64,000 nt of DNA from Candidatus Parcubacteria bacterium (GTDB lineage Bacteria; Patescibacteriota; Minisyncoccia; Phycocordibacterales; JAACPR01): NCBI GenBank assembly GCA_009995365.1, contig JAACPR010000003.1, positions 405-64,404 on the forward strand, read 5' to 3'. Made by a program: the position numbers and the translations under genes. How positions within the stretch are numbered: the stretch's first letter is position 1; each line of letters begins with the position of its first letter. The notes beneath the pieces were generated by a model, which had not been told where the DNA came from, searched no databases, and was given only the letters and a program-made list of their open reading frames with translations. This document shows, piece by piece, positions 36,083-47,612 of this stretch.

Positions 36083-36246
36083 TTTTTGTATGTTTATTAA
36101 AAAATGTTGCCCTATAATCAAGATGGGCAACTTGGGGAAAATATACCACATCTTATATTAAATTACAATGATATAAGCCTGTTTCTAGGTAAATAATACT
36201 TTACTATGTTTATCGGTTAAGTTATGATATCTAAATCGAAAATAAT

Positions 36247-36441
36247 ATGGAATTAAAAAACAATCTTCAAAAAATTAGAAAAGAAAAAGGAGTAACTCAA
36301 GAAGAGTTGGCTAAGAAGGTCGGTGTAACTAGACAGACCATTATTTGCATCGAGCACGGAAATTGTTCACCGTCTATTTCTGTAGCGTTAAAAATCGGTA
36401 AAACGCTAGGTGTTTGCGTTGACGATATTTTTGAAATATAA
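36247..36441 (+). CDS. XRE-family helix-turn-helix transcriptional regulator
   Basis: LQKIRKEKGVTQEELAKKVGVTRQTIICIEHG. Confidence 0.75.
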   Translation: MELKNNLQKIRKEKGVTQEELAKKVGVTRQTIICIEHGNCSPSISVALKIGKTLGVCVDDIFEI

Positions 36442-36484
36442 CTAAATTCTTTAAAAGACAAAAAAAAAGGGGGGGGTAAATAAA

Positions 36485-36510
36485 AGACCCGTCAATATTT
36501 TGGCGGGTCT
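36485..36510. terminator. Hairpin terminator (AGACCCGtcaatattttggCGGGTCT) preceded by an A9G8 homopolymer pair
   Basis: 7-bp GC stem between convergent genes. Confidence 0.4.
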
Positions 36511-36526
36511 TTGTTGAAAAACTCTG

Positions 36527-36895
36527 TCAGGCCACTAATTGAGCATTTTCAGTTTCTTCGGTTGATTCTTCAGAATATTCGTATTCTATTTTAATACGTC
36601 CACCCCATACTAATTCGGGGTGTTTTTCTTTGAATTCGAAGAAAACCTTTGATACTCTTCCAGTTTTTAGATAGTATAGAAGTCTTTCACCAGGGTGATT
36701 GCTGGGATCATTATGAAAATGTTCTCCAGCATACCATTGATTTTCAGGACTTTTTATTTCATCTAAGACAGTTTTTAATGCACCATATAACAGAGAATTT
36801 CTGAATGTGCTATTTTGGGTAGTTTTTTCAGACATTGCAGGTTCCTCCATATATAATTCTACACCCGTTATGCACAGTTTTATATAGTTATCCAC
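36527..36895 (-). CDS. Hypothetical protein
   Basis: ORF. The true start is probably at MEEPAMSEKTT or MSEKTT. Confidence 0.35.
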   Translation of the reverse strand: MDNYIKLCITGVELYMEEPAMSEKTTQNSTFRNSLLYGALKTVLDEIKSPENQWYAGEHFHNDPSNHPGERLLYYLKTGRVSKVFFEFKEKHPELVWGGRIKIEYEYSEESTEETENAQLVA

Positions 36896-36940
36896 AGTTG
36901 TTGATGATTTATCAACAGTTTATTCATTCTAAATAAAAAA

Positions 36941-36965
36941 ACTCCACGAATTTGTGGAGTTTTTT
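36941..36965. terminator. Bidirectional hairpin terminator (ACTCCACgaatttGTGGAGT) with flanking A- and T-runs
   Basis: Perfect 7-bp stem with T5 downstream and A6 upstream. Confidence 0.45.
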
Positions 36966-36985
36966 AGAAAAACACTAAAGAGGCT

Positions 36986-37141
36986 TTATGCTTCTCCTTC
37001 TGTTTTAGTTTCTTCTGCAACTTCAGGAGCTGCTTCTTCTGCTGGAGCTTCAGTTGTAGAAGCTTCTTCATTTGAGGCTGTTTCTTCTACAGTAGTGTCG
37101 TCATTTGTTGCTACTGCGTCATTTTGTGTATTTTCATCCAT
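36986..37141 (-). CDS. Possible small acidic protein (51 aa, MDENTQNDAVATNDD...). This is an alternative to the low-complexity plus-strand ORF 36954..37154.
   Basis: The minus-strand ORF ends at the bidirectional terminator, whereas the plus-strand ORF starts inside the terminator hairpin. Confidence 0.2.
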   Translation of the reverse strand: MDENTQNDAVATNDDTTVEETASNEEASTTEAPAEEAAPEVAEETKTEGEA

Positions 37142-37238
37142 AATTTTAGATTAATCTAATAAGTCTCAAATATGAGAGACGATTGATATTATAGCACGCT
37201 TTACGATAAAAAGAGGCTAACTGTTGTATTATCAATAG

Positions 37239-37451
37239 TTAGCCTCTTGTATATTCGGATTGTATGTCTGGACCTAGTTTTTCTCTGTAGTGTTCAGTGC
37301 TTTCATTTTTTATTTGATTGCAAGAACATTCACAGATATTAGAGATCTTTATGTTTCGGTATCCCATCATAAAAGACCTTTTTTCTATTTTTAAGATAAG
37401 CCCGTTGCATTCTGAATGTCTACCTTTCCCGCATAAACTACATATTTTCAT
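37239..37451 (-). CDS. Small Cys-rich (zinc-ribbon-like) hypothetical protein
   Basis: CSLCGKGRHSEC...CECSCNQ. Confidence 0.3.
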   Translation of the reverse strand: MKICSLCGKGRHSECNGLILKIEKRSFMMGYRNIKISNICECSCNQIKNESTEHYREKLGPDIQSEYTRG

Positions 37452-37571
37452 AATGAACCTTTAGATTTAGTATAAGGTAAAAATTATTAAAATGAAAATT
37501 AGTTTAATTTAAATAAATTATAGGGATAAAAATTGTATATCTGTATTTAAATAAGTTATACTTTTGTTTAT

Positions 37572-37979
37572 ATGAAAAAAGGGTTCACATTAATTGAATT
37601 GTTGGTTGTTATCTCCATTAATAAAACAGATAGACATAATATAGCATTTGATAGTTGTGGGGAGTCTGATGCGAGTGGTTTAGGTTGTAATGAAGGTACA
37701 ACTTGGAAAGAAGCAAAAGATCTTTGTGAAAGCGTTGGGGCAAGATTATGTACTATTGAAGAAACTGAAAATAATATCCCGCGAGGAACAGGGTGCGGTT
37801 TCGATTCTGATATGGTTTGGACTATGAGTCCATGTGAAAGCGGAATGTATATAAGAGAAGGAAATTATGATTCTAATTGGGATAGATATTGCCAAAAGGA
37901 TTTGAATGATACAACTGCAAATGGTGGTAAATATTCTGGTAATAATATCGCAGTCCGTTGTTGCGCCGATGATTATTAA
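37572..37979 (+). CDS. Type IV pilin-like N-terminus fused to a C-type lectin-like domain
   Basis: MKKGFTLIELLVVISI (G-1/F+1/E+5). TWKEAKDLCESVGARLCTIEETE is a C-type-lectin-domain WxxAxxxCxxxGxxL pattern. The protein ends ...AVRCCADDY. Confidence 0.55.
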   Translation: MKKGFTLIELLVVISINKTDRHNIAFDSCGESDASGLGCNEGTTWKEAKDLCESVGARLCTIEETENNIPRGTGCGFDSDMVWTMSPCESGMYIREGNYDSNWDRYCQKDLNDTTANGGKYSGNNIAVRCCADDY

Positions 37980-37980
37980 T

Positions 37981-38135
37981 GTGGACATCTTGCATAATTA
38001 TTGGAAACATCTAGAATATTGGGTTTATGTGAGTTATGACAAGATATTAGAGCTGGAGGGGGGAAATATTAACCTTATAAATAAAAGATAAGTTGTGGTG
38101 ATAAGTATCACATAGTGGTAATTAAATAAGATATA
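37981..38135 (+). repeat. Island repeat family, copy 1 (about 150 bp). It has a GTG-initiated mini-ORF (36 codons) and a GTGATAAGTATCAC palindrome box.
   Basis: gtggacatcttgcataattattggaaacatctagaatattgggtttatg...ggtgataagtatcacatagtggtaattaaataag. Confidence 0.7.
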
Positions 38136-38143
38136 ATATTTTT

Positions 38144-38440
38144 ATGAGTAATCTCACAAAAATATTAACTGCTTTCATTGTCCCTAATGTCATGTTGTTT
38201 CTTTTAGGCTCTGGAATAGTTGATGAGTTTATATATTCAATAAATAAAAATGTAGGAGAATCTTTTTCAAGCATCATTTGGATTATTATTGTTGCTTTTT
38301 ATATAGCGGGCTTCTCAATTTTAACTAGTCTGGAATATTCTAAAAAAATAAAAATAGTTTATTATCTACTGTATCTGGTCGGTGTACCGATCTTATTTAT
38401 TTTTATTGCTCTATTTCTATTTACAATACAATTTGGTTAA
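38144..38440 (+). CDS. Hypothetical small membrane protein (3 TM)
   Basis: ORF with a hydrophobic profile following repeat copy 1. Confidence 0.4.
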   Translation: MSNLTKILTAFIVPNVMLFLLGSGIVDEFIYSINKNVGESFSSIIWIIIVAFYIAGFSILTSLEYSKKIKIVYYLLYLVGVPILFIFIALFLFTIQFG

Positions 38441-38516
38441 TAAAATTAACTAATTATTTTTTCTAAACCCTGTTATACATTAAAAATACCCTTACAAAAT
38501 AAGAGTATTTTTTCTT

Positions 38517-38680
38517 GTGGACATCGTGCTTAATTATTGGAACCACCTAGAATGCTGGGTGTATGAGAGTTATGACAAAGTAATTGAGTTAGAGGAGGGG
38601 AATTGAGCCTTGCAAATAAAGAATAGGTTACGGTGATAAGTATCACATATAGGTAATTAAATAATATAAAAGAAAACACC
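38517..38680 (+). repeat. Island repeat family, copy 2
   Basis: gtggacatcgtgcttaattattggaaccacctagaatgctgggtgtatgagagttatgacaaag...ggtgataagtatcacatataggtaattaaataat. Confidence 0.7.
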
Positions 38681-38718
38681 CTATCGAAGATAAAATGTCT
38701 TCAGTAGGGTGTTGATAT

Positions 38719-39132
38719 TTACATAAACCCATCAAATGGTCTACATCTCATACCATACGGGTCAGTATTAGGAAGGTGGACTTCATCAGGTAGTTTCTGA
38801 GGTTCTTCATCGGATTCGTTTAATTCAAGTCCAAGAAGAGCTTCTATTGCTGGGAGTATTTCATCCCAATCAAATACTTCACCTTTAGTAACGGATATTT
38901 CATGGTTGTGTGTATGAACACCTTCCACTCCGTCTAAATAATTGATTCTTTCAATGATGACAGGTTTCTCCGCTTCTTCACCAAGTAATCCAAATAAGTC
39001 ACCACCTACAGATATAAAATCTTTTCCAAAGTATATGCTTGTTTGAATACAAACAATATTTTGATTGGGTGGAAACTTGAATTTGTAACGAAGTCTCTTT
39101 CCCTTCTTTTTGTTTAAGGGCTCTTCAGCCAT
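38719..39132 (-). CDS. Hypothetical protein
   Basis: ORF of 137 aa with a terminator hairpin downstream at 38685-38715. Confidence 0.4.
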   Translation of the reverse strand: MAEEPLNKKKGKRLRYKFKFPPNQNIVCIQTSIYFGKDFISVGGDLFGLLGEEAEKPVIIERINYLDGVEGVHTHNHEISVTKGEVFDWDEILPAIEALLGLELNESDEEPQKLPDEVHLPNTDPYGMRCRPFDGFM

Positions 39133-39231
39133 AGTAAACCTCTTTCTAAGAATTTTAATTGAATGTGCTCAACGTCAGAATTGACGAAGTAATTGAATAA
39201 TAACACTAAAACACTAAAAGTCAAGCGATGT

Positions 39232-40286
39232 GACTTTGTAAATTGTCTATCGAAATGCAATCGCTTTTGATAATGATTGCTTCGGAACTCTCTTTATAAT
39301 ACCACGCTCACAAGCCACCTCATGAGCACTTCTATAACCTAGTGACTTTCTATACTTATGATTAAGCAGGTGTAGCTGTGATTGAAATACATCGTCTGAT
39401 ATTTTCGATAGATTAGTTCCTTTAGGAATAAACCATCTTCTGATTAAACCTATACCACCTTCAACATGTGGTTTTTGCCAAGGAGATCCTAAATCACAAA
39501 AATAACTAGGTATGGGTAGTTTATTATGATGAACATTTTCAATTCCATTGTCTGCTAAAAATGTATCTATATTCAAATAGTTTAATTTAGTGTTTATAGA
39601 ATCATCAACAACTCTAGCTTGTCTATTTGGGATTATAGAACCTGAAAATAATTTTGCTTCGGGAACAACGATTAATAACCCACTTGCCTTAGAGTGACAA
39701 TTTTTAGGTGATACAAATAAATCACGTTCTGCATGGATACCTATATTAGGTCTATCCTTAAAGGATATTCTGTTTGGTATTAAAACCTTTTTCCCTAGTT
39801 TAGATTGTTTCTTGCTTCTTGTTCTCTTTGTACATAAATACTGACAATATTGTTGACCATATGAAGAATATAACCATTTATAAATAGCATTAGTGCCAAC
39901 CCTTGATTCTATATTCATTCTCTTCAATCTTCCTGCAATTTCATCAGGAGAACGCAATTTCTTTAATTGTTTTATAATGTATTGTTTTAATTCAGGATAT
40001 GATTCAATTTTGATACCAATTCTTTTTGAATTAAGTCTTTTAACATCAGCATCCTTTTGAGCTGTGGTTGCAGAATATTTATATGTTTTCCTGGGGTATC
40101 TATTGATTTCTCTGGAAACAGTACTTGGGTGTATTCCAAGTATTAGAGCCATATCTTTCTGACTATGTCCGTTCATAAATAAAGCATGAATTCTATCTCT
40201 ATCCCTTTGTTTTAAATGTCTAAAATTTCTTATTTTCTTCATACAATTTAATATTACATAAATTGCATTTCAAAAGAGAATTTTCA
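39232..40286 (-). mobile_element. IS30-family insertion sequence (about 1.05 kb) with 25-bp imperfect terminal inverted repeats
   Basis: Right inverted repeat TGTAAATTGTCTATCGAAATGCAAT and left inverted repeat (reverse complement) TGAAAATTCTCTTTTGAAATGCAAT, matching 20 of 25. They enclose a single transposase gene. Confidence 0.7.
39247..40242 (-). CDS. IS30-family DDE transposase
   Basis: N-terminal HTH (GHSQKDMALILGIHPSTVSREINRY). C-terminal DLGSPWQKPHVEGGIGLIRRWFPKGTNLSKIS...LNHKYRKSLGYRSAHEV is typical of IS30. Confidence 0.85.
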   Translation of the reverse strand: MKKIRNFRHLKQRDRDRIHALFMNGHSQKDMALILGIHPSTVSREINRYPRKTYKYSATTAQKDADVKRLNSKRIGIKIESYPELKQYIIKQLKKLRSPDEIAGRLKRMNIESRVGTNAIYKWLYSSYGQQYCQYLCTKRTRSKKQSKLGKKVLIPNRISFKDRPNIGIHAERDLFVSPKNCHSKASGLLIVVPEAKLFSGSIIPNRQARVVDDSINTKLNYLNIDTFLADNGIENVHHNKLPIPSYFCDLGSPWQKPHVEGGIGLIRRWFIPKGTNLSKISDDVFQSQLHLLNHKYRKSLGYRSAHEVACERGIIKRVPKQSLSKAIAFR

Positions 40287-40332
40287 GACATCGTGTAAAT
40301 ACTTACCATATATAGTTAATTAAATAATATAA
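40287..40332 (+). repeat. Truncated island repeat (5' gacatcgtg joined directly to the 3' box ...atatagttaattaaataat) abutting the IS30 left end
   Basis: Shares the first 9 nt and the last roughly 25 nt of the repeat consensus. Confidence 0.45.
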
Positions 40333-40378
40333 AGAAAAAAGCACCTTTGATATTATCTCCGGTGCCTCGTTGGTTATT

Positions 40379-40552
40379 TTATTCCTGTTCGAGTTTTTCA
40401 AACTTCTCGTCTTTTGGGTCGGGATCATAACCACCTTTTTCAAGACAATCTTTAAGAAGTTGAACTCCTTCTGGTCCAAGAAGTTGCTCGTTTCCTACAT
40501 AGTGTGATGTTTCTGTGTGGCCACAGTTTCTACATCTTATATCATTTGCCAT
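40379..40552 (-). CDS. Small zinc-ribbon-like protein (57 aa)
   Basis: MANDIRCRNCGHTETSHYVGNEQLLGPEGVQLL... It is not in the ORF track because it is shorter than 60 aa. Confidence 0.3.
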   Translation of the reverse strand: MANDIRCRNCGHTETSHYVGNEQLLGPEGVQLLKDCLEKGGYDPDPKDEKFEKLEQE

Positions 40553-40632
40553 ATTTTTCCTTTCTAAAAAAAGATTATCATATTTTTATAAAATAAAAAG
40601 AAAACACCCTATCCAAAGACGGGGTGTCTTTG

Positions 40633-40974
40633 TTATAGGATGTTAATGAAAGCATCCCCGTCTAAAGTGCTATGGCCATATTTAGCCTCACACAGATTTA
40701 TACATTCAAGAACGTATTCTTTGAATGTGTTTTGATTGATTGAAACATCTTCGTCCATCAACAATATGTTGTTAATTTCGTTGATCCAAGACATTACATT
40801 TTCAATTCTCATAGAAGCGTATTCGATACTTGTTCGGTCCATTGACTCTCCGTTCTTATCAAATACCTCGATTGAAGTATTGCGACGATTTTCAGAGCAA
40901 AACTTGATTTTGATTTGCTCTTTGATACCGACTTTAATTATTTTTTCGGTAGTTTCTTCTACTAGGGATTTCAT
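40633..40974 (-). CDS. Hypothetical protein
   Basis: ORF of 113 aa with a downstream terminator hairpin (acaccc...gggtgt) at 40603-40628. Confidence 0.4.
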   Translation of the reverse strand: MKSLVEETTEKIIKVGIKEQIKIKFCSENRRNTSIEVFDKNGESMDRTSIEYASMRIENVMSWINEINNILLMDEDVSINQNTFKEYVLECINLCEAKYGHSTLDGDAFINIL

Positions 40975-41083
40975 TCCGAGTCTCTCCTAAGACTATGGGT
41001 TTAATTTAAATAACTGTTACATTTATAAATATAGCATATTAATACCAAAAATGAGCCTATAAATATAGACTTACTAAAGATGT

Positions 41084-41240
41084 GGACATCGTGCGTAATT
41101 ATTGGAACCACCTAGGACATTGGGTTTATGAGAAGTATGATTTGATTTGTGAGGTGGAGAGCGGGGAATACAGCCTTATAAATTAAGAAACGTGGTGTTT
41201 ATAAGTATCACATATAGTTAATTAAATAAGAAAAACCCCA
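41084..41240 (+). repeat. Island repeat family, copy 3
   Basis: gtggacatcgtgcgtaattattggaaccacctaggacattgggtttatgagaagtatga...tataagtatcacatatagttaattaaataag. Confidence 0.7.
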
Positions 41241-41262
41241 CCAATGTGGTGGGGTTCGAATA

Positions 41263-41667
41263 TTATCCTTCCCAATAAAGAATAATCATTGTTTTGGGAT
41301 CTAAGCTATCCAAAAAAGATTTTATCGCCATGTTAATTTGGCTGGTGTCTTCAGGAAAAATGATTTTCATGAAATCACCAGCTTCTAAGTAACACAATTC
41401 ATTTCCGAATAGGTCATCTTTTTTGACTTCTGTTAACCCTTCGTCTTCGTAAGTCGTCAATGAGATTCCTGCCGGTAAAGGTTTGGGCGAAACCTTTTGT
41501 TCAAATTTCTCTTTTTCGTATTCAGACAAATCTATTATTTGTCTGAAAATTCTACGATCACTTTGAAACCTTAATCTATTAAAACCAATGATGCCGTTCA
41601 TCGTCTCGATGACTTCCGGCAAGTTAAAGTTTCCAATTACAGGATAAATAGTTAATGATATTTGCAT
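41263..41667 (-). CDS. Hypothetical protein
   Basis: ORF of 134 aa with the terminator hairpin ccccaccaatgtggtgggg just downstream. Confidence 0.4.
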   Translation of the reverse strand: MQISLTIYPVIGNFNLPEVIETMNGIIGFNRLRFQSDRRIFRQIIDLSEYEKEKFEQKVSPKPLPAGISLTTYEDEGLTEVKKDDLFGNELCYLEAGDFMKIIFPEDTSQINMAIKSFLDSLDPKTMIILYWEG

Positions 41668-41790
41668 AATTCAATCTTTCTTGTTGAGTTTTTTGAAAAG
41701 AATTTTTCTGCTGATCAATATATAACAAAAAATAATATAAGTCAAACTTATGCCATAAAATATCCTTACAAATAAAGATATTCTCATGAT

Positions 41791-41945
41791 GTGGACATCG
41801 TGCTGAATTATTGGAACCATCTAGAATGTTGGGTTTTTGAGAGTTATGACAAGATAATAGAGCTAGAAGAGGGGAATATGGGGTTTCTAAACAAAGGATA
41901 GTGTATAGTAATATATATCACATACAGTTAATTAAATAGGAAAAT
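41791..41945 (+). repeat. Island repeat family, copy 4
   Basis: gtggacatcgtgctgaattattggaaccatctagaatgttgggtttttgagagttatgacaagataatagagctagaagaggggaatat...atatatcacatacagttaattaaatagg. Confidence 0.7.
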
Positions 41946-41997
41946 AAAAAAGAACCGCGTCCATAAACACACGGTTCTCGAAGTCTGAGATTTTTTG

Positions 41998-42171
41998 CTA
42001 TTGTAAATATATAGCAATAGACCCCACACTGTAAAAAAAAGAGTAAGCCACCATATTCGCCACTTGCCACTTACTGTAGCCACCATCTATCTTCCGCCCA
42101 ATTGCAATGAGGAGGAAAAAGAGGCTTAAAATTGCGAAGGAGACTACGATTATTTTTTCTAGCGTTTCCAT
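41998..42171 (-). CDS. Small membrane protein (57 aa)
   Basis: METLEKIIVVSFAILSLFFLLIAIGRKIDGGYSKW... A hairpin terminator (agaaccg...cggttct) lies downstream at 41955-41982. Confidence 0.3.
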   Translation of the reverse strand: METLEKIIVVSFAILSLFFLLIAIGRKIDGGYSKWQVANMVAYSFFYSVGSIAIYLQ

Positions 42172-42261
42172 TTTATAAATAACTGATTTTTTATGAAGTC
42201 AGGATGACGTCATTTCTGCTTTCTAATATAACATACTTATACAAAAAAGTCAAGAAATTGT

Positions 42262-42345
42262 GGTTGTAAATTGTCTATCGAAATGCAATCGCTTTTAATA
42301 ATGATTGCTTCGGAACTCTCTTTATAATACAACGCTCACAAGTCA
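42262..42345 (+). mobile_element. Remnant of an IS30 right end (inverted repeat plus the 3' end of the transposase gene). It is a solo fragment.
   Basis: About 85 bp nearly identical to 39229-39320. It includes TGTAAATTGTCTATCGAAATGCAAT and then diverges. Confidence 0.55.
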
Positions 42346-42441
42346 CTTCATCGTGAATGATGATATAACTCATTTATGACTAAGTATACACTCTACTGTA
42401 TACTGTATACTTTTTTCTAAAATATGTTATATTATATAGAC

Positions 42442-43413
42442 ATGATTAAAAATAGAGACAAAATAATTGAATATTTGAAAAATAATAAACAGGCAACTCC
42501 TGGTGATATTTCTAGATATTTAAAGATTAATCGATCTGCCACTCATAGACAAATCAAAAGGCTATTAGAAGATGGTGTGCTTGATAAAATTGGTAAATCT
42601 CCAAAAGTTTTTTACATGTTGAAAAATGAAAGTGAAGTGTTGGCTAAATCCAATATTGACGGCAAGTTAAAAGAAACTATAGATGAAAATTTCATGATTA
42701 TAACAGCTGATGGTAATAGAAAAGAGGGAGTAGAAGCTTTTGTTGATTGGTGTAAAGATAGAAACGAAAATGTTGAGAAGTCTGCGATTGAGTATGTGAA
42801 AACATTTGATAAATATTCTGCCTACAAAAAAGATGGCATCATTAATGGTAATTATAAAATTAAAAAAGCATTCGAATCTGTGTATTTGGATGATGTTTTT
42901 TATCTTGATTTTTATGCAATAGAAAGATTTGGGAAAACCAAGCTTGGTCAATTGCTATTGTATGCAAAACAAAGTCAGGATCTTCAGATGATAGAAGAAT
43001 TAAATCAAAAAATTAAACCAGAAATTGTTTCTTTGATAAAAAAACAGAGTGTCGATGCTGTTGGTTTTATTCCACCAACTGTCAAAAGAGAAACTCAGCT
43101 AATGAGAGAAATAAAAAAAGGCCTTAATCTCTCTCTGCCCGAGCTTAATTTAGTTAAAGTCAAGACAAATGTGACAGTGCCACAAAAAACATTGAATAAG
43201 TTATCTCACCGTATTAAAAATGCTGAAAAAACTATTTTTGTTGATGATAATCGGAAATTTAATAAAGTATTGTTGATTGATGATGCTGTTGGTTCTGGAT
43301 CTACACTAAATGAGACTGCTAAAAAAATTAAAGAGCAGGGAATTTCCGATAATGTCATAGGTTTGGCCGTTGTCGGTAGTTTTAGTGGTTTTGAAGTTAT
43401 TAGTGAGGTTTAA
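42442..43413 (+). CDS. Winged-HTH plus phosphoribosyltransferase-domain protein (ComF/PurR-like architecture). The track ORF starts at 42424.
   Basis: N-terminal HTH (ATPGDISRYLKINRSATHRQIKRLLEDG). C-terminal PRPP-binding motif VLLIDDAVGSGSTLNE. Confidence 0.55.
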   Translation: MIKNRDKIIEYLKNNKQATPGDISRYLKINRSATHRQIKRLLEDGVLDKIGKSPKVFYMLKNESEVLAKSNIDGKLKETIDENFMIITADGNRKEGVEAFVDWCKDRNENVEKSAIEYVKTFDKYSAYKKDGIINGNYKIKKAFESVYLDDVFYLDFYAIERFGKTKLGQLLLYAKQSQDLQMIEELNQKIKPEIVSLIKKQSVDAVGFIPPTVKRETQLMREIKKGLNLSLPELNLVKVKTNVTVPQKTLNKLSHRIKNAEKTIFVDDNRKFNKVLLIDDAVGSGSTLNETAKKIKEQGISDNVIGLAVVGSFSGFEVISEV

Positions 43414-43417
43414 GATG

Positions 43418-43792
43418 TGGAAACGGTGGGAATCGAACCCACGTCCAAACAAGGTAAACATATGACTCTACAAAGCTTAGTTTATCTTTTGATCTCGATT
43501 ACTGTTCTGAAAGATAAACAGAACAAACAATAATCCAGCTCGTGATTTCGGATAAGAACGCGAGCAGCGAACTTAACCTATCCTGATTTGCGTCGCCTTA
43601 GTCATCCAATCAGGATTCAGATGGTAAGACGTCGCTAGCTTATTAAGATAAAGCGAATGCAAAGTCTCCAACCTTGTAAGGTGAAGCAATTGAATTGTTT
43701 TTTGCATTTGGTTTTTCTGACAGTTTAAAGATTTATCAGAGATCTGCTTTGCACATATGTTTACGATTTGTTCGTCTAAACCGATCGTCCCC
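43418..43792 (-). ncRNA. ssrA: tmRNA (SsrA)
   Basis: 3' tRNA-like domain GTGGGTTCGATTCCCAC plus acceptor CGTTTCC-A. The 5' end GGGGACGAUCGGUUUAGACGAAC forms the acceptor with a G3:U70 pair and an A73 discriminator (Ala identity). The candidate tag ORF ends ...GDFAFALS with UAAUAA. It lies directly downstream of smpB. Confidence 0.7.
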
Positions 43793-43941: not shown

Positions 43942-44391
43942 TTATCGTAATTTTTTCAAAGTTCTATGAATCTCACGGTCAGATTCGCGGCGTTTGATTG
44001 TCTCTCGTTTATCTCGAGTCTTTTTCCCGCGCCCGACAGCGAACTTAACCTTTACCTTATTTCCTTTATTATACAACGACATAGGTATCAATGTCAAACC
44101 CTTCTGATTCTCGATTTCAGCCAACTCCCTCAACTCCTTTTTAGTCAAAAGTAGGCGACGAGGACGCATTTGATCATAGTTATCAGGGGTATTATTTGCT
44201 TGGTAAGGAGGAATATCCAGCCCAATCAGAAAAGCTTCGTTCCCACGGATAACAACATAAGAACCAGAAAGATTCCCTCTGTTATTTTTAAGGGATTTCA
44301 CTTCAAAACCGAATAATTCAATACCGGCTTCGTATTTATCTTGCACCTCATAACTGAAGGTTGCTTTCTTGTTGTTGACTAAAGTTGCCAT
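43942..44391 (-). CDS. smpB: SsrA-binding protein SmpB
   Basis: KATFSYEV...FGFEVKSLK...GNLSGSYVVIRGNEAFL... Confidence 0.9.
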   Translation of the reverse strand: MATLVNNKKATFSYEVQDKYEAGIELFGFEVKSLKNNRGNLSGSYVVIRGNEAFLIGLDIPPYQANNTPDNYDQMRPRRLLLTKKELRELAEIENQKGLTLIPMSLYNKGNKVKVKFAVGRGKKTRDKRETIKRRESDREIHRTLKKLR

Positions 44392-47500: not shown

Positions 47501-47538
47501 CGCCTTTTTTTCTTTGACTTTTTTACTTATAAAATTTG

Positions 47539-47612
47539 TGCACCCAGCAGGACTCGAACCTGCGACCGCGGAGATATAAGCTCCGTGCTACTACCAACTG
47601 AGCTATGGGTGC
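47539..47612 (-). tRNA. tRNA with anticodon UAU (reads AUA, presumptive tRNA-Ile)
   Basis: Cloverleaf: acceptor GCACCCA/TGGGTGC, T-arm GCAGG-TTCGAGT-CCTGC, anticodon stem CGGAG/CTCCG with loop CUUAUAU. No encoded CCA. Confidence 0.75.

What the first reader, a model, noticed from the sequence alone, without database searches (positions are those of the whole stretch)
37981..41945. Novel 150-bp repeat family punctuating a small-gene island, with a conserved mini-ORF under apparent purifying selection and a palindromic box
Four full copies (37981, 38517, 41084, 41791) and at least one truncated copy (40287) share the consensus GTGGACATCGTGC.TAATTATTGGAACCACCTAGAATG.TGGGT.TATGAGAGTTATGACAAGATAATAGAGCTAGAGGAGGGGAATAT. 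A 3' box ...GTGATAAGTATCACATATAGTTAATTAAATAA follows. Read from the GTG, each copy encodes a 29-36 codon peptide (VDIVLNYWNHLECWVYESYDKVIELEEGN...). Between copies 2 and 4 there are about 7 synonymous versus 2 conservative changes (CTT/CTG, CAC/CAT, TGC/TGT, GTG/GTT, AAA/AAG, ATT/ATA, TTA/CTA). This implies a translated micro-protein rather than neutral repeat drift. The 3' box contains a perfect palindrome GTGATA-AG-TATCAC, a plausible dimeric-regulator operator. Each copy flanks a different small gene (membrane proteins, zinc-ribbon proteins, hypotheticals). The layout resembles a cassette array or recombination hotspot.
Basis: seen in the sequence. Interest (0 to 1): 0.8.

Follow-up and report, generated by a model that had tools for sequence, protein, structure and literature searches.

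The report
Island integration scars beside tmRNA gene
The 150-base repeats are most likely the junction sequences left each time a small mobile gene island inserted next to the tmRNA gene of this tiny-genome (Patescibacteria) bacterium, and the "mini-gene" inside them is probably the detached tail end of the inserting enzyme's gene, not a free-standing micro-protein.

Summary
The repeat family is real: four full copies, one internally deleted copy and possibly one more. All lie on the + strand, in a 7.2-kb insertion between infC and the 3' end of ssrA (tmRNA). The reading frame is also real: 0 stops in 11 related copies against 28 in each other frame, and pN/pS about 0.5. It does not look like a stand-alone gene. 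All 23 copies found in about 16 Paceibacteria genomes begin at GTG-GA(C/G). Part of that is imposed by the search pattern, but those bases match the tmRNA gene's last bases and homology starts there. No conserved ribosome-binding site was noticed.

Nearly all placeable copies lie 0.5-8.7 kb downstream of ssrA, one marking the far edge of variable DNA. In relative L080, a complete large serine recombinase (LSR) gene sits at the ssrA-proximal end. It has no stop before the core and reads in frame GTG-GAG. The repeat's first 30 nt match the tmRNA end under the LSR attP/attB rule.

Best reading: att-site modules from serial LSR-mediated island insertion, each carrying the LSR gene's alternative 3' tail. 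The closest precedent is the Dehalococcoides ssrA islands. No LSR+tail fusion and no LSR in the window were found, so the tail link is inferred.

The parts
36152..43416 (.). Whole inserted region (about 7.2 kb) between infC and the 3' end of ssrA. It holds all repeat copies and the small cargo genes.
   Evidence: In relatives, infC lies about 1 kb from ssrA. None of the window genes from 36247 to 43413 has a homolog in the smpB loci of 80 relatives. The syntenic relative L104 has a different insertion, with its own repeat array, at the same place.
37980..38135 (+). Copy c1. Core TGTGGA 37980-37985; tail frame 37981-38091 (36 codons plus stop); box 38106-38129. A + strand 98-aa membrane-protein gene (38144-38440) starts 15 nt after the box.
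38516..38670 (+). Copy c2. Core 38516-38521; tail frame 38517-38606 (29 codons plus stop); box 38641-38664. About 34 nt to its left resemble the left flank of c4.
   Evidence: (family D1)
39226..39235 (+). Left stump of copy c5 (GATGTGAC), cut off by the IS insertion. A predicted leftward promoter (39224-39197) lies just to its left.
   Evidence: sequence reading
39236..40286 (-). IS30-like insertion sequence. Its transposase is 39247-40242 (331 aa, HTH_38 domain). It has imperfect terminal inverted repeats of about 25 nt and is inserted at the core of copy c5 (GAC duplicated).
   Evidence: (D5)
40287..40333 (+). Copy c5, right part: GACATCGTG joined directly to the box (40304-40327). The tail region (about 105 nt) is deleted.
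   Evidence: (D4)
41036..41235 (+). Copy c3 with its left arm. Left arm 41036-41080 is shared with the copy in L100. Core 41081-41086; tail frame 41082-41186 (34 codons plus stop); box 41206-41229.
41757..41945 (+). Copy c4 with its left arm. Left arm 41757-41789; core 41790-41795; tail frame 41791-41901 (36 codons plus stop); box 41916-41939. A predicted leftward promoter (41745-41717) lies just outside the left arm.
42260..42400 (+). Probable degenerate copy c6. GTGG (42260-42263), then an 86-nt remnant of the same IS (42264-42349, 95% identical to 39236-39323), then ATCGTG (42350-42355) and a box-like TAAGTATACACTCTACTG (42382-42399).
   Evidence: (D5) and sequence reading. Not detected by nhmmer, so low confidence.
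43380..43445 (+). Junction next to ssrA (attR-like). The end of the HTH-PRTase gene (stop 43411-43413) is followed by GAT and the core TGTGGA (43416-43421). The core coincides with the tmRNA 3' end. The tmRNA half-site follows: GTGGAAACGGTGGGAATCGAACCCAC.
43415..43792 (-). tmRNA gene (ssrA), the integration target. smpB follows at 43942-44391.
38144..43413 (.). Cargo genes between the copies: 38144-38440 (+, 98 aa, membrane); 38719-39132 (-, 137 aa, Nfu_N-like); 40379-40552 (-, 57 aa); 40633-40974 (-, 113 aa); 41263-41667 (-, 134 aa); 41998-42171 (-, 57 aa, membrane); 42424-43413 (+, wHTH + phosphoribosyltransferase-like). Most minus-strand genes have a predicted terminator. Promoters were predicted for only some of them.

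Best explanation
The repeats are attachment-site modules. They were left by, or carried on, small genomic islands that a large serine recombinase (LSR) inserts at the very 3' end of the tmRNA gene.

Each module has four parts:
(i) a 6-bp crossover core, TGTGGA, identical to the tmRNA terminus;
(ii) an element-type (P') half-site of about 28 nt;
(iii) a coding stretch of about 25-40 codons that continues the LSR reading frame, so in the excised circle (or behind a neighbouring island) the LSR gene would end in this tail, whereas in the integrated state it runs into the antisense of the tmRNA;
(iv) a conserved 25-nt box at a fixed distance of about 125 nt from the core, function unknown (candidate promoter or accessory site).

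Repeated insertion at ssrA, followed by loss of the recombinase genes, deletions and an IS30-like insertion, would produce the present array of 4-6 modules separating one- or two-gene cargo units.

Shown here: the location, the shared core, the half-site relationship, the coding-type constraint, and LSR genes reading through the core in relatives.

Inferred: that the tail is translated as part of the LSR, that an LSR built this particular array, and the order of events.
For: 1. Position. All window copies lie in DNA inserted between infC and ssrA. In relatives, copies lie 0.5-8.7 kb downstream of ssrA in the same relative orientation: L101, L103, L104, L019, L025, L028, L035, L080, L086, L092. 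Arrays recur, with 3-4 copies in L104 and 2 in L102/L103.

2. Boundary. L080 and L092 share the flanking gene (62% identity) up to the copy, but the DNA between the copy and ssrA differs (6.2 vs 1.6 kb). Read by eye in L101, the left junction is ..TTATTAA|TGTGGACATCG and the ssrA junction is ..GTAGTT|TGTGGAGATGG. In L013 the same upstream element abuts TGTGGAGATGG of ssrA directly.

3. Recombinase. L080 carries a complete LSR (Resolvase + Recombinase + Zn_ribbon_recom, 518 aa) convergent with ssrA at the proximal end of the island. The repeat sits at the distal end. L025 has an LSR fragment in the same arrangement. LSR genes or fragments adjoin ssrA in 8 of 80 loci.

4. Frame. The eleven LSR ORFs of this clade (L080, L089, L016, L025, L036, P0001-4, P0006, P0007) have no stop before the core and cross it as V-[E/D], GTG GAx. 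This is the same frame that is open and constrained in the repeat: 0 stops vs 28 and 28, pN/pS 0.48 vs 1.1-1.3.

5. Site architecture. The consensus of 23 repeat starts aligns with the consensus of 46 tmRNA ends at shift 0 for the inner 12 nt (0.63). The outer motif aligns best at a shift of +5 (0.47 vs about 0.2-0.3). This is the published attB/attP rule for LSRs (PMC11722253).

6. All 23 copies start at GTGGA[C/G] with a fixed 15-nt spacing to TGGAA[A/C]C. The collecting pattern required both features, so their invariance is not independent evidence. What counts is that homology begins at this point, with unrelated sequence to the left.

7. Precedent. In Dehalococcoides, tandem ssrA islands have an LSR gene (dsiB) that always overlaps the att site with its stop outside the island. 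Fifteen of those islands lack any integrase (PMC3146451).
Against: No LSR gene exists in the 64-kb window or in the other array-bearing relatives L102-L104.

No protein with an LSR body fused to this tail was found. Three searches returned only stand-alone ORF calls of 30-107 aa: the 1.84-billion representative library, the 5.8-billion library and viral contigs.

Co-occurrence of this LSR clade with the tail could be checked in only two loci, L080 and L025.

The dyad symmetry expected of reconstructed attP/attB sites is not significant (p about 0.2-0.3). The left half-sites look like plain T-rich terminator tails.

Canonical LSRs do not recombine attP with attL or attR, so serial insertion needs an extra assumption.

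One window-type copy (L105) lies in a locus with no tmRNA within 8.7 kb and starts with ATG. One (L099) has a Shine-Dalgarno-like GGAGAG upstream.

In the window, the gene next to ssrA ends with its own stop 3 nt before the core.
Confidence: 0.6

Rival explanations
1. Stand-alone micro-protein gene. Each copy expresses a 29-36-aa acidic, Trp/Tyr-rich peptide from its GTG, possibly regulated through the downstream box.
For: The frame is open in all intact copies and shows pN/pS of about 0.5, while the other frames show more than 1. Gene callers have called it in many metagenomes (P0008-P0028). L105 has ATG as its first codon. L099 has a GGAGAG 6 nt before an upstream GTG. No LSR+tail fusion was found.
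Against: The first two codons are GTG-GA(C/G) in all 23 copies. That was a search criterion, but these bases equal the tmRNA terminus and the crossover core, and homology starts there. No conserved RBS or promoter was noticed, though the upstream regions were read by eye, not scored. Outermost copies follow a terminator T-run by 5-15 nt. Stop positions wander from codon 20 to 40. Deleted and frame-shifted copies are tolerated (c5, L019, L086, L104:8763). There is no match in Pfam or PDB.
Confidence: 0.15
2. Attachment or recombination sites of an ssrA-targeting system that is not an LSR (an unknown or tyrosine recombinase, or homologous recombination between modules). The coding signal would come from some other element gene that crosses the junction.
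For: The arrays contain no LSR. The left half-sites and dyad symmetry are unconvincing. The modules are 150-200 nt, far longer than an LSR site, with a box phased about 125 nt from the core, which recalls arm or accessory sites.
Against: No tyrosine integrase or other recombinase was seen in the Pfam domain listings or ORF lists of the islands looked at, though no targeted search for one was run. The only recombinase found at the proximal end of such islands is an LSR reading through the core. The 5-bp half-site shift is LSR-specific. Identity with ssrA is only 6-8 bp, unlike the 20-50-bp tDNA repeats of tyrosine integrases.
Confidence: 0.1
3. Miniature inverted-repeat transposable element (MITE) with short terminal inverted repeats (ATGTGGAC ... 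GTATCACAT).
For: The ends are partly complementary. The short copy c5 keeps both ends and lacks the middle. There are several copies per genome.
Against: All copies have one orientation and are confined to the ssrA-proximal insertion; none occurs elsewhere in 64 kb. No target-site duplications were seen. The inverted repeat is only 5-7 bp. The coding-type constraint would be unexplained. There is no similarity to the resident IS or to phage or plasmid records.
Confidence: 0.05
4. Structured small RNA or cis-regulatory RNA.
For: Conserved intergenic position. The four window copies can pair their ends.
Against: RNAalifold on 17 diverse copies predicts no conserved pair at all. There was no covariation in the four-copy fold. 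No Rfam match overlaps any repeat copy even at E <= 1. The variation has three-base periodicity.
Confidence: 0.03

Closest known systems
Dehalococcoides ssrA-specific genomic islands (ssrA-GIs) with the serine recombinase DsiB (McMurdie et al. 2011, PMC3146451)
   Same: Tandem islands lie directly downstream of ssrA. The integrase is a large serine recombinase placed at the island edge and convergent with ssrA. Its ORF always crosses the att site and has its stop outside the island. Many islands lack any integrase ('cis-mobilisable', accretion). The authors already speculated that the integrase is complete only in the circle or next to an island supplying the 3' gene fragment.
   Different: The phylum and the LSR clade differ. 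There the repeats are 20-bp copies of the ssrA end; here identity with ssrA is 6-8 bp and the repeated unit is a 150-200-nt element-derived module. There the crossed region was reported as divergent and probably non-functional; here the tail is conserved with pN/pS of about 0.5. The DsiA/ParB/Mom integration module was not seen among the genes of the islands inspected. The cargo units here are one or two small genes.
Large serine integrase attP/attB architecture (Rutherford and Van Duyne model; SPbeta structures, PMC11722253)
   Same: The inner half-site motif sits at the same distance from the centre in both sites, and the outer (DBD2) motif is 5 bp closer in attB. This is the relationship seen between tmRNA ends and repeat starts. 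The identical core is short.
   Different: No detectable dyad symmetry or second half-site. There is an extra conserved box about 125 nt away, which LSR sites are not known to need. No biochemical data exist.
Tandem arrays or accretion of integrative elements at tRNA/tmRNA genes (TIGER/Islander work, PMC7192596; tycheposons of Prochlorococcus, 10.1101/2020.12.28.424599)
   Same: Serial site-specific insertion at one tDNA builds arrays of unrelated cargo separated by att repeats, including in streamlined genomes.
   Different: Those arrays are mostly built by tyrosine integrases that regenerate a reusable core of 20-100 bp. Here the units are far smaller (0.4-2.4 kb) and lack integrases.
Integron gene-cassette arrays
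   Same: Short promoter-poor or single-gene units separated by a repeated recombination site of about 60-150 bp, next to a fixed platform.
   Different: No IntI tyrosine recombinase. No attC-like conserved hairpin. The cassettes are in both orientations, and several have predicted promoters or terminators of their own. The platform is ssrA.
attP inside the integrase gene, e.g. myxophage Mx8 intP (recalled from memory, not checked here)
   Same: Integration changes the 3' end of the integrase gene, giving different C-termini in the free and integrated states.
   Different: Mx8 Int is a tyrosine recombinase. No array and no tmRNA target.

Membership tests
LSR attachment site (attL / P'-type half-site) | An LSR gene belongs to the element that the site bounds | tested here: not met
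   No LSR in the window or in L102-L104 (tblastn). Met in relative L080 (complete LSR) and partly in L025 (fragment).
LSR attachment site (attL / P'-type half-site) | A short identical core is shared by both junctions of the element | tested here: met
   TGTGGA occurs at every copy and at the tmRNA terminus in the window, L080 and L101; L025 and L019 share only GTGGA.
LSR attachment site (attL / P'-type half-site) | The outer (DBD2) motif is about 5 bp farther from the centre in the P-type than in the B-type half-site, with the inner motif in register | tested here: met
   Column similarity is 0.63 for the inner part at shift 0. The outer part is best at shift +5 (0.47) against about 0.2-0.3 at other shifts. 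The rule is from PMC11722253.
LSR attachment site (attL / P'-type half-site) | Imperfect dyad symmetry of the reconstructed attP and attB | tested here: inconclusive
   Best centres fall at -1/0 relative to the core, but 15/32 and 13/32 matches are reached by 20-32% of shuffles.
LSR attachment site (attL / P'-type half-site) | Recombination by the cognate enzyme | not testable with these tools
   Needs an assay or junction reads.
ssrA-specific genomic island array (Dehalococcoides type) | Islands lie immediately downstream of ssrA and disrupt local synteny | tested here: met
ssrA-specific genomic island array (Dehalococcoides type) | Islands are bounded by about 20-bp direct repeats of the ssrA 3' end | tested here: not met
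   Only 6-8 bp are identical to ssrA. The rest of the repeat is not ssrA-like, and nhmmer does not hit the tmRNA end.
ssrA-specific genomic island array (Dehalococcoides type) | The integrase ORF overlaps the att site and has no stop inside the island | tested here: met
   Eleven LSR ORFs of this clade in relatives and databases. Not applicable in the window, which has no LSR.
Integron cassette array | IntI integrase plus attC sites with a conserved imperfect hairpin | tested here: not met
   No tyrosine recombinase among the ten largest island ORFs scanned. No conserved pairing in 17 copies.
MITE | Terminal inverted repeats, target-site duplications, dispersed copies in both orientations | tested here: not met
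   Weak 5-7-bp inverted ends only. One orientation and one locus.
Small protein-coding gene | A start codon with a ribosome-binding site or leaderless promoter, varying among homologs | tested here: not met
   All 23 copies start with GTG, though the collecting pattern required it. No SD was seen by eye apart from L099. Terminators lie directly upstream of outermost copies.
Small protein-coding gene | Purifying selection in one frame | tested here: met
   pN/pS 0.48 in frame 0 against 1.14 and 1.30 in the other frames. Stops 0 / 28 / 28.

The most novel reading that the evidence does not exclude
Integration physically splits the recombinase gene. A conserved ~30-residue C-terminal tail is joined to the large serine recombinase only in the excised circle, or when another island lands behind it. 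In the chromosome the enzyme instead ends in a tmRNA-antisense tail. The C-terminus would therefore act as a built-in sensor of recombination state that tunes activity or directionality. Integrase-less mini-cassettes carrying the same module would pile up as an integron-like, LSR-based gene array in ultra-small Patescibacteria genomes.
Probability: 0.3. Interest if true: 0.65.

Novelty: new variant of a known kind. Interest (0 to 1): 0.45.

Why it matters
Patescibacteria have tiny genomes and few recognised routes for gene gain. This locus shows that the tmRNA gene is a recurrent landing pad there. LSR genes or fragments adjoin it in 8 of 80 sampled relatives, and arrays are seen in at least three genomes.

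It also gives a sequence signature that delimits such islands: TGTGGA, then the TGGAACC motif, then a box at about 125 nt.

The conserved tail is, to my knowledge, the first sequence-level hint that the 3' gene fragment stored at the far junction is functional. The Dehalococcoides work could only speculate about this. If it holds, it would be a simple natural switch on a serine integrase, an enzyme class widely used in genome engineering.

For annotation, it warns that the many 30-60-aa 'hypothetical proteins' called on these repeats are probably not genes.

Tried and rejected
1. Fragment of a known longer protein found by direct search. Concatenated peptides against 5.8 billion proteins gave nothing. 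A profile against 1.84 billion representatives and a 19-sequence profile gave only short stand-alone calls. So the link to the LSR rests on context, not on a found fusion.

2. Degenerate DNA pattern scans. Genome representatives: 0 hits. Viral contigs: 0. Metagenome contigs: 2 short contigs.

3. LSR relatives in viral contigs, which might have shown the excised form: none. One alignment was too divergent for the tool.

4. Displaced tmRNA 3' fragment, as for a classic tyrosine-integrase island. Rejected because only 6-8 nt match and the T-arm is not preserved.

5. Structured RNA. Rejected.

6. Known MITE, IS, phage or plasmid sequence. No matches.

7. Dyad symmetry of reconstructed att sites. 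Not significant.

8. The box as a sigma-70 promoter (ATCACA-17-TAnnnT, with leaderless genes 6 nt after the -10). This fits c1, c2, c5 and L001 but not c3, c4, L080 or L101. The generic scan did not call it. Left open.

9. Strain variation. Ten contigs carrying the identical neighbour gene all show the same array or break inside it, so there is no polymorphism to exploit.

10. Pfam and PDB for the peptide: nothing.

Full report
OBSERVATION

The repeat family exists as described. Exact-seed repeat finding, mismatch-tolerant motif searches and an nhmmer profile find four full + strand copies. A short copy lies at 40287-40333. Nothing similar occurs elsewhere in the 64 kb, and no matches are expected by chance.

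Each full copy is open for 29-36 codons from GTG, while the other two frames are full of stops. Copies 2 and 4 differ by 8 synonymous and 2 non-synonymous codons.

The 3' box TATCACATA..TTAATTAAATAA is in all five copies. The 'perfect palindrome' is only in copies 1 and 2.

Two additions. The short copy is the right-hand stump of a copy into whose first bases an IS30-like element (39236-40286) inserted. A second stump with an 86-nt remnant of the same IS probably lies at 42260-42400.

CONTEXT

The window comes from a low-GC (about 33%) Patescibacteria genome of the Paceibacteria/Parcubacteria group. The best SmpB identity to any of 185,579 species representatives is 63-64%.

[quoted passage not shown] In relatives, infC-rpmI-rplT lies about 1 kb from ssrA. 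Here infC is 7.3 kb away. None of the genes from 36247 to 43413 has a homolog in the 80 relatives' loci. The whole 36.2-43.4-kb stretch is therefore inserted DNA, and the repeats punctuate it.

THE READING FRAME IS REAL

I collected 23 copies from about 16 genomes through metagenome pattern hits, smpB-anchored loci and look-ups of called small ORFs.

For the 11 window-type copies, frame 0 has no stop in the first 84 nt, against 28 stops in each other frame. Pooled pN/pS is 0.48, and 0.50 when the first 30 nt are excluded. The other frames give 1.14 and 1.30. There are no indels in the first 22 codons.

A structured-RNA explanation fails. RNAalifold predicts no conserved pair in 17 copies. No Rfam match overlaps a repeat copy even at E <= 1.

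IT DOES NOT BEHAVE LIKE A FREE-STANDING GENE

All 23 copies begin GTG-GA(C/G), with homology starting there. The pattern used to collect them required those bases, so the invariance alone proves little. L105, found through a protein look-up instead, reads ATG-GAC.

Outermost copies follow the terminator hairpin and T-run of the upstream gene by a few bases. I saw no Shine-Dalgarno sequence upstream, with L099 as the only possible exception; this was read by eye and not scored.

Those first bases, (GA)TGTGGA, are identical to the + strand reading of the tmRNA gene's own 3' terminus: 43414-43421 in the window, and likewise in relatives.

LINK TO A RECOMBINASE

In relative L080, a complete large serine recombinase lies convergent with ssrA. 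It is 518 aa and has Resolvase, Recombinase and Zn_ribbon_recom domains. Its ORF has no stop of its own. It crosses the tmRNA terminus as ..Q-D-V-E and ends 11 codons into the antisense of the tmRNA.

The island it heads has four further ORFs (65, 530, 596 and 119 aa), among them an OLD-family ATPase-nuclease. It ends 6.2 kb away at a copy of the repeat. L025 shows the same arrangement with an LSR fragment.

Eleven LSR ORFs of this clade all cross a tRNA or tmRNA terminus as V-[E/D] (GTG GAx) without a prior stop. They are L080, L089, L016, L025, L036 and P0001-4, P0006, P0007. That is the frame which is open and constrained in the repeats.

If recombination occurs in TGTGGA, the excised element would encode LSR..QD-VDxxxxxWN(H/Q)Lxx(W/Y)(V/I)(F/Y)E... 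The 'mini-ORF' would then be the recombinase gene's alternative 3' end, parked at the distal junction (attL) while the element is integrated.

INDEPENDENT SUPPORT FOR AN LSR SITE

The consensus of the 23 repeat starts is GTGGACATcGTGcgaAAaaaTTGGAACCA. The consensus of 46 tmRNA ends is GTGGAGATGGgGGGAATcGAACCC.

They align in register over the inner 12 nt (similarity 0.63). The outer motif aligns best when shifted by 5 bp (0.47, against about 0.2-0.3 at other shifts).

This matches the published distinction between attB and attP half-sites of large serine integrases (PMC11722253).

BOUNDARIES

L080 and L092 share the flanking gene up to the repeat, but differ completely between the repeat and ssrA.

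In L101, a GC-rich upstream element and its terminator are followed by TGTGGAC-tail-box, then one membrane-protein gene, then TGTGGAG-ssrA. In L013, the same element and terminator abut TGTGGAG-ssrA directly.

So the tail and box belong to the inserted DNA, not to the chromosome.

ARRAYS

The syntenic relative L104 has 3-4 copies between infC and ssrA, and L102/L103 has two.

In the window, the internal copies c2, c3 and c4 also share 35-55 nt to their left. The copy in L100 shares c3's left flank in a different gene context. This would fit internal junctions made of the right end of one unit plus the left end of the next.

The units carry one or two small genes. Most minus-strand genes have a predicted terminator, and some have predicted leftward promoters: TTGACT-17-TATATT at 41745-41717 and 42253-42225, and TTGACT-16-TATTAT at 39224-39197.

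CLOSEST PRECEDENT

The closest precedent is the Dehalococcoides ssrA genomic islands. They are tandem islands downstream of ssrA. Their serine recombinase gene (dsiB) always overlaps the att site with its stop outside the island. Fifteen of the islands have no integrase.

The authors suggested that dsiB might be complete only in the circle, or next to an island supplying 'the requisite 3' gene fragment' (PMC3146451). Tandem accretion at tDNAs is well known in general (PMC7192596).

Differences here:
- a different phylum and LSR clade;
- only 6-8 bp shared with ssrA instead of 20 bp;
- a 150-200-nt conserved element-side module;
- a tail under coding constraint, where the Dehalococcoides authors saw divergence;
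- very small, integrase-less units.

WEAK POINTS

I found no LSR in the window or in the other array-bearing contigs.

No protein in any library has an LSR body fused to this tail. There are no viral-contig relatives.

Only two loci allow the LSR-plus-tail co-occurrence to be checked.

Dyad symmetry of the reconstructed sites is not significant, and the left half-sites look like plain terminator tails.

Canonical LSRs do not use attL or attR as substrates. Serial insertion therefore requires either tolerance for the left half-site or intervening deletions.

One copy (L105) sits away from any tmRNA and starts with ATG.

THE BOX

The box (CACAT..GT.AATT.AAT) is unexplained. It lies 124-126 nt from the core in most copies and 114-116 nt in three, that is, about one helical turn less.

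In 6 of the 14 copies with a canonical box, a + strand gene starts 35-65 nt after it. It is therefore a candidate promoter or accessory site.

VERDICT

It is partly wrong: this is probably not a free micro-protein, and the palindrome is not conserved.

Most likely these are att-site modules of LSR-mobilised ssrA islands that carry the recombinase gene's detachable tail. That makes it a new variant of a known kind. I hold the att-site part with fair confidence and the tail-fusion part with moderate confidence.

Noticed in passing
L013:10912-11121, L097:577-815, L098:63-296, L101:17-249 (also L032, L047, L060, L082, L083, L022, L027, L017): A conserved GC-rich element of about 215-235 nt sits next to ssrA in many Paceibacteria, with extra copies elsewhere. 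Its left end is an antisense copy of the last ~19 nt of the tmRNA. Its right end holds a sense copy of the tmRNA T-loop and acceptor end with an inserted hairpin, followed by a terminator. No Rfam family matches it at gathering score. It is not present in the window.
   Followed up: partly
window 39236-40286 and 42264-42349: An IS30-like element (331-aa transposase with an HTH_38 domain and imperfect inverted repeats of about 25 nt) is inserted in the core of one repeat copy. An 86-nt remnant of the same IS (95% identical) sits at the equivalent position of another stump. Both have the same AAAAGTCAAG promoter-like flank, which suggests a duplication followed by an internal deletion.
   Followed up: partly
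L105:3808-3918 (JGI Ga0611986_0003007): A near-identical relative of copy c4 starts with ATG instead of GTG. It lies between an acidic 67-aa gene and a methyltransferase gene, with no tRNA or tmRNA anywhere on the 8.7-kb contig. The family is therefore not strictly tied to ssrA.
   Followed up: partly
window 38131-38146, 42430-42444; L001:530-551; L002:~960-945: Several + strand cargo genes start 6 nt after a TATAAT-like hexamer with no Shine-Dalgarno sequence (e.g. GATATAAT-ATTTTT-ATG). This suggests leaderless mRNAs. The true start of the HTH-PRTase gene may be the ATG at 42442 and not the one at 42424.
   Followed up: no
window 47538-47612: A tRNA-Ile with anticodon UAU lies a few kb from smpB. 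It is conserved in the same neighbourhood in relatives (L019, L025, L028, L035, L080, L092, L104).
   Followed up: no
window 37572-37979: A 135-aa protein with a type IV pilin-like N-terminal methylation motif and a Cys-rich C-terminal part. Its stop codon lies immediately before, and one base into, the core of copy c1.
   Followed up: no
window ~36460-36477: A homopolymer tract, A9 followed by G8, in the intergenic region after the 64-aa HTH gene. It could be prone to slippage.
   Followed up: no
L080:11181-14588 and L107:656-3768: The cargo of the LSR-bearing island type includes an OLD-family protein (AAA_15 + OLD-like TOPRIM) and AAA_15/AAA_21 ATPases. These islands may therefore carry anti-phage defence genes in Patescibacteria.
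   Followed up: no
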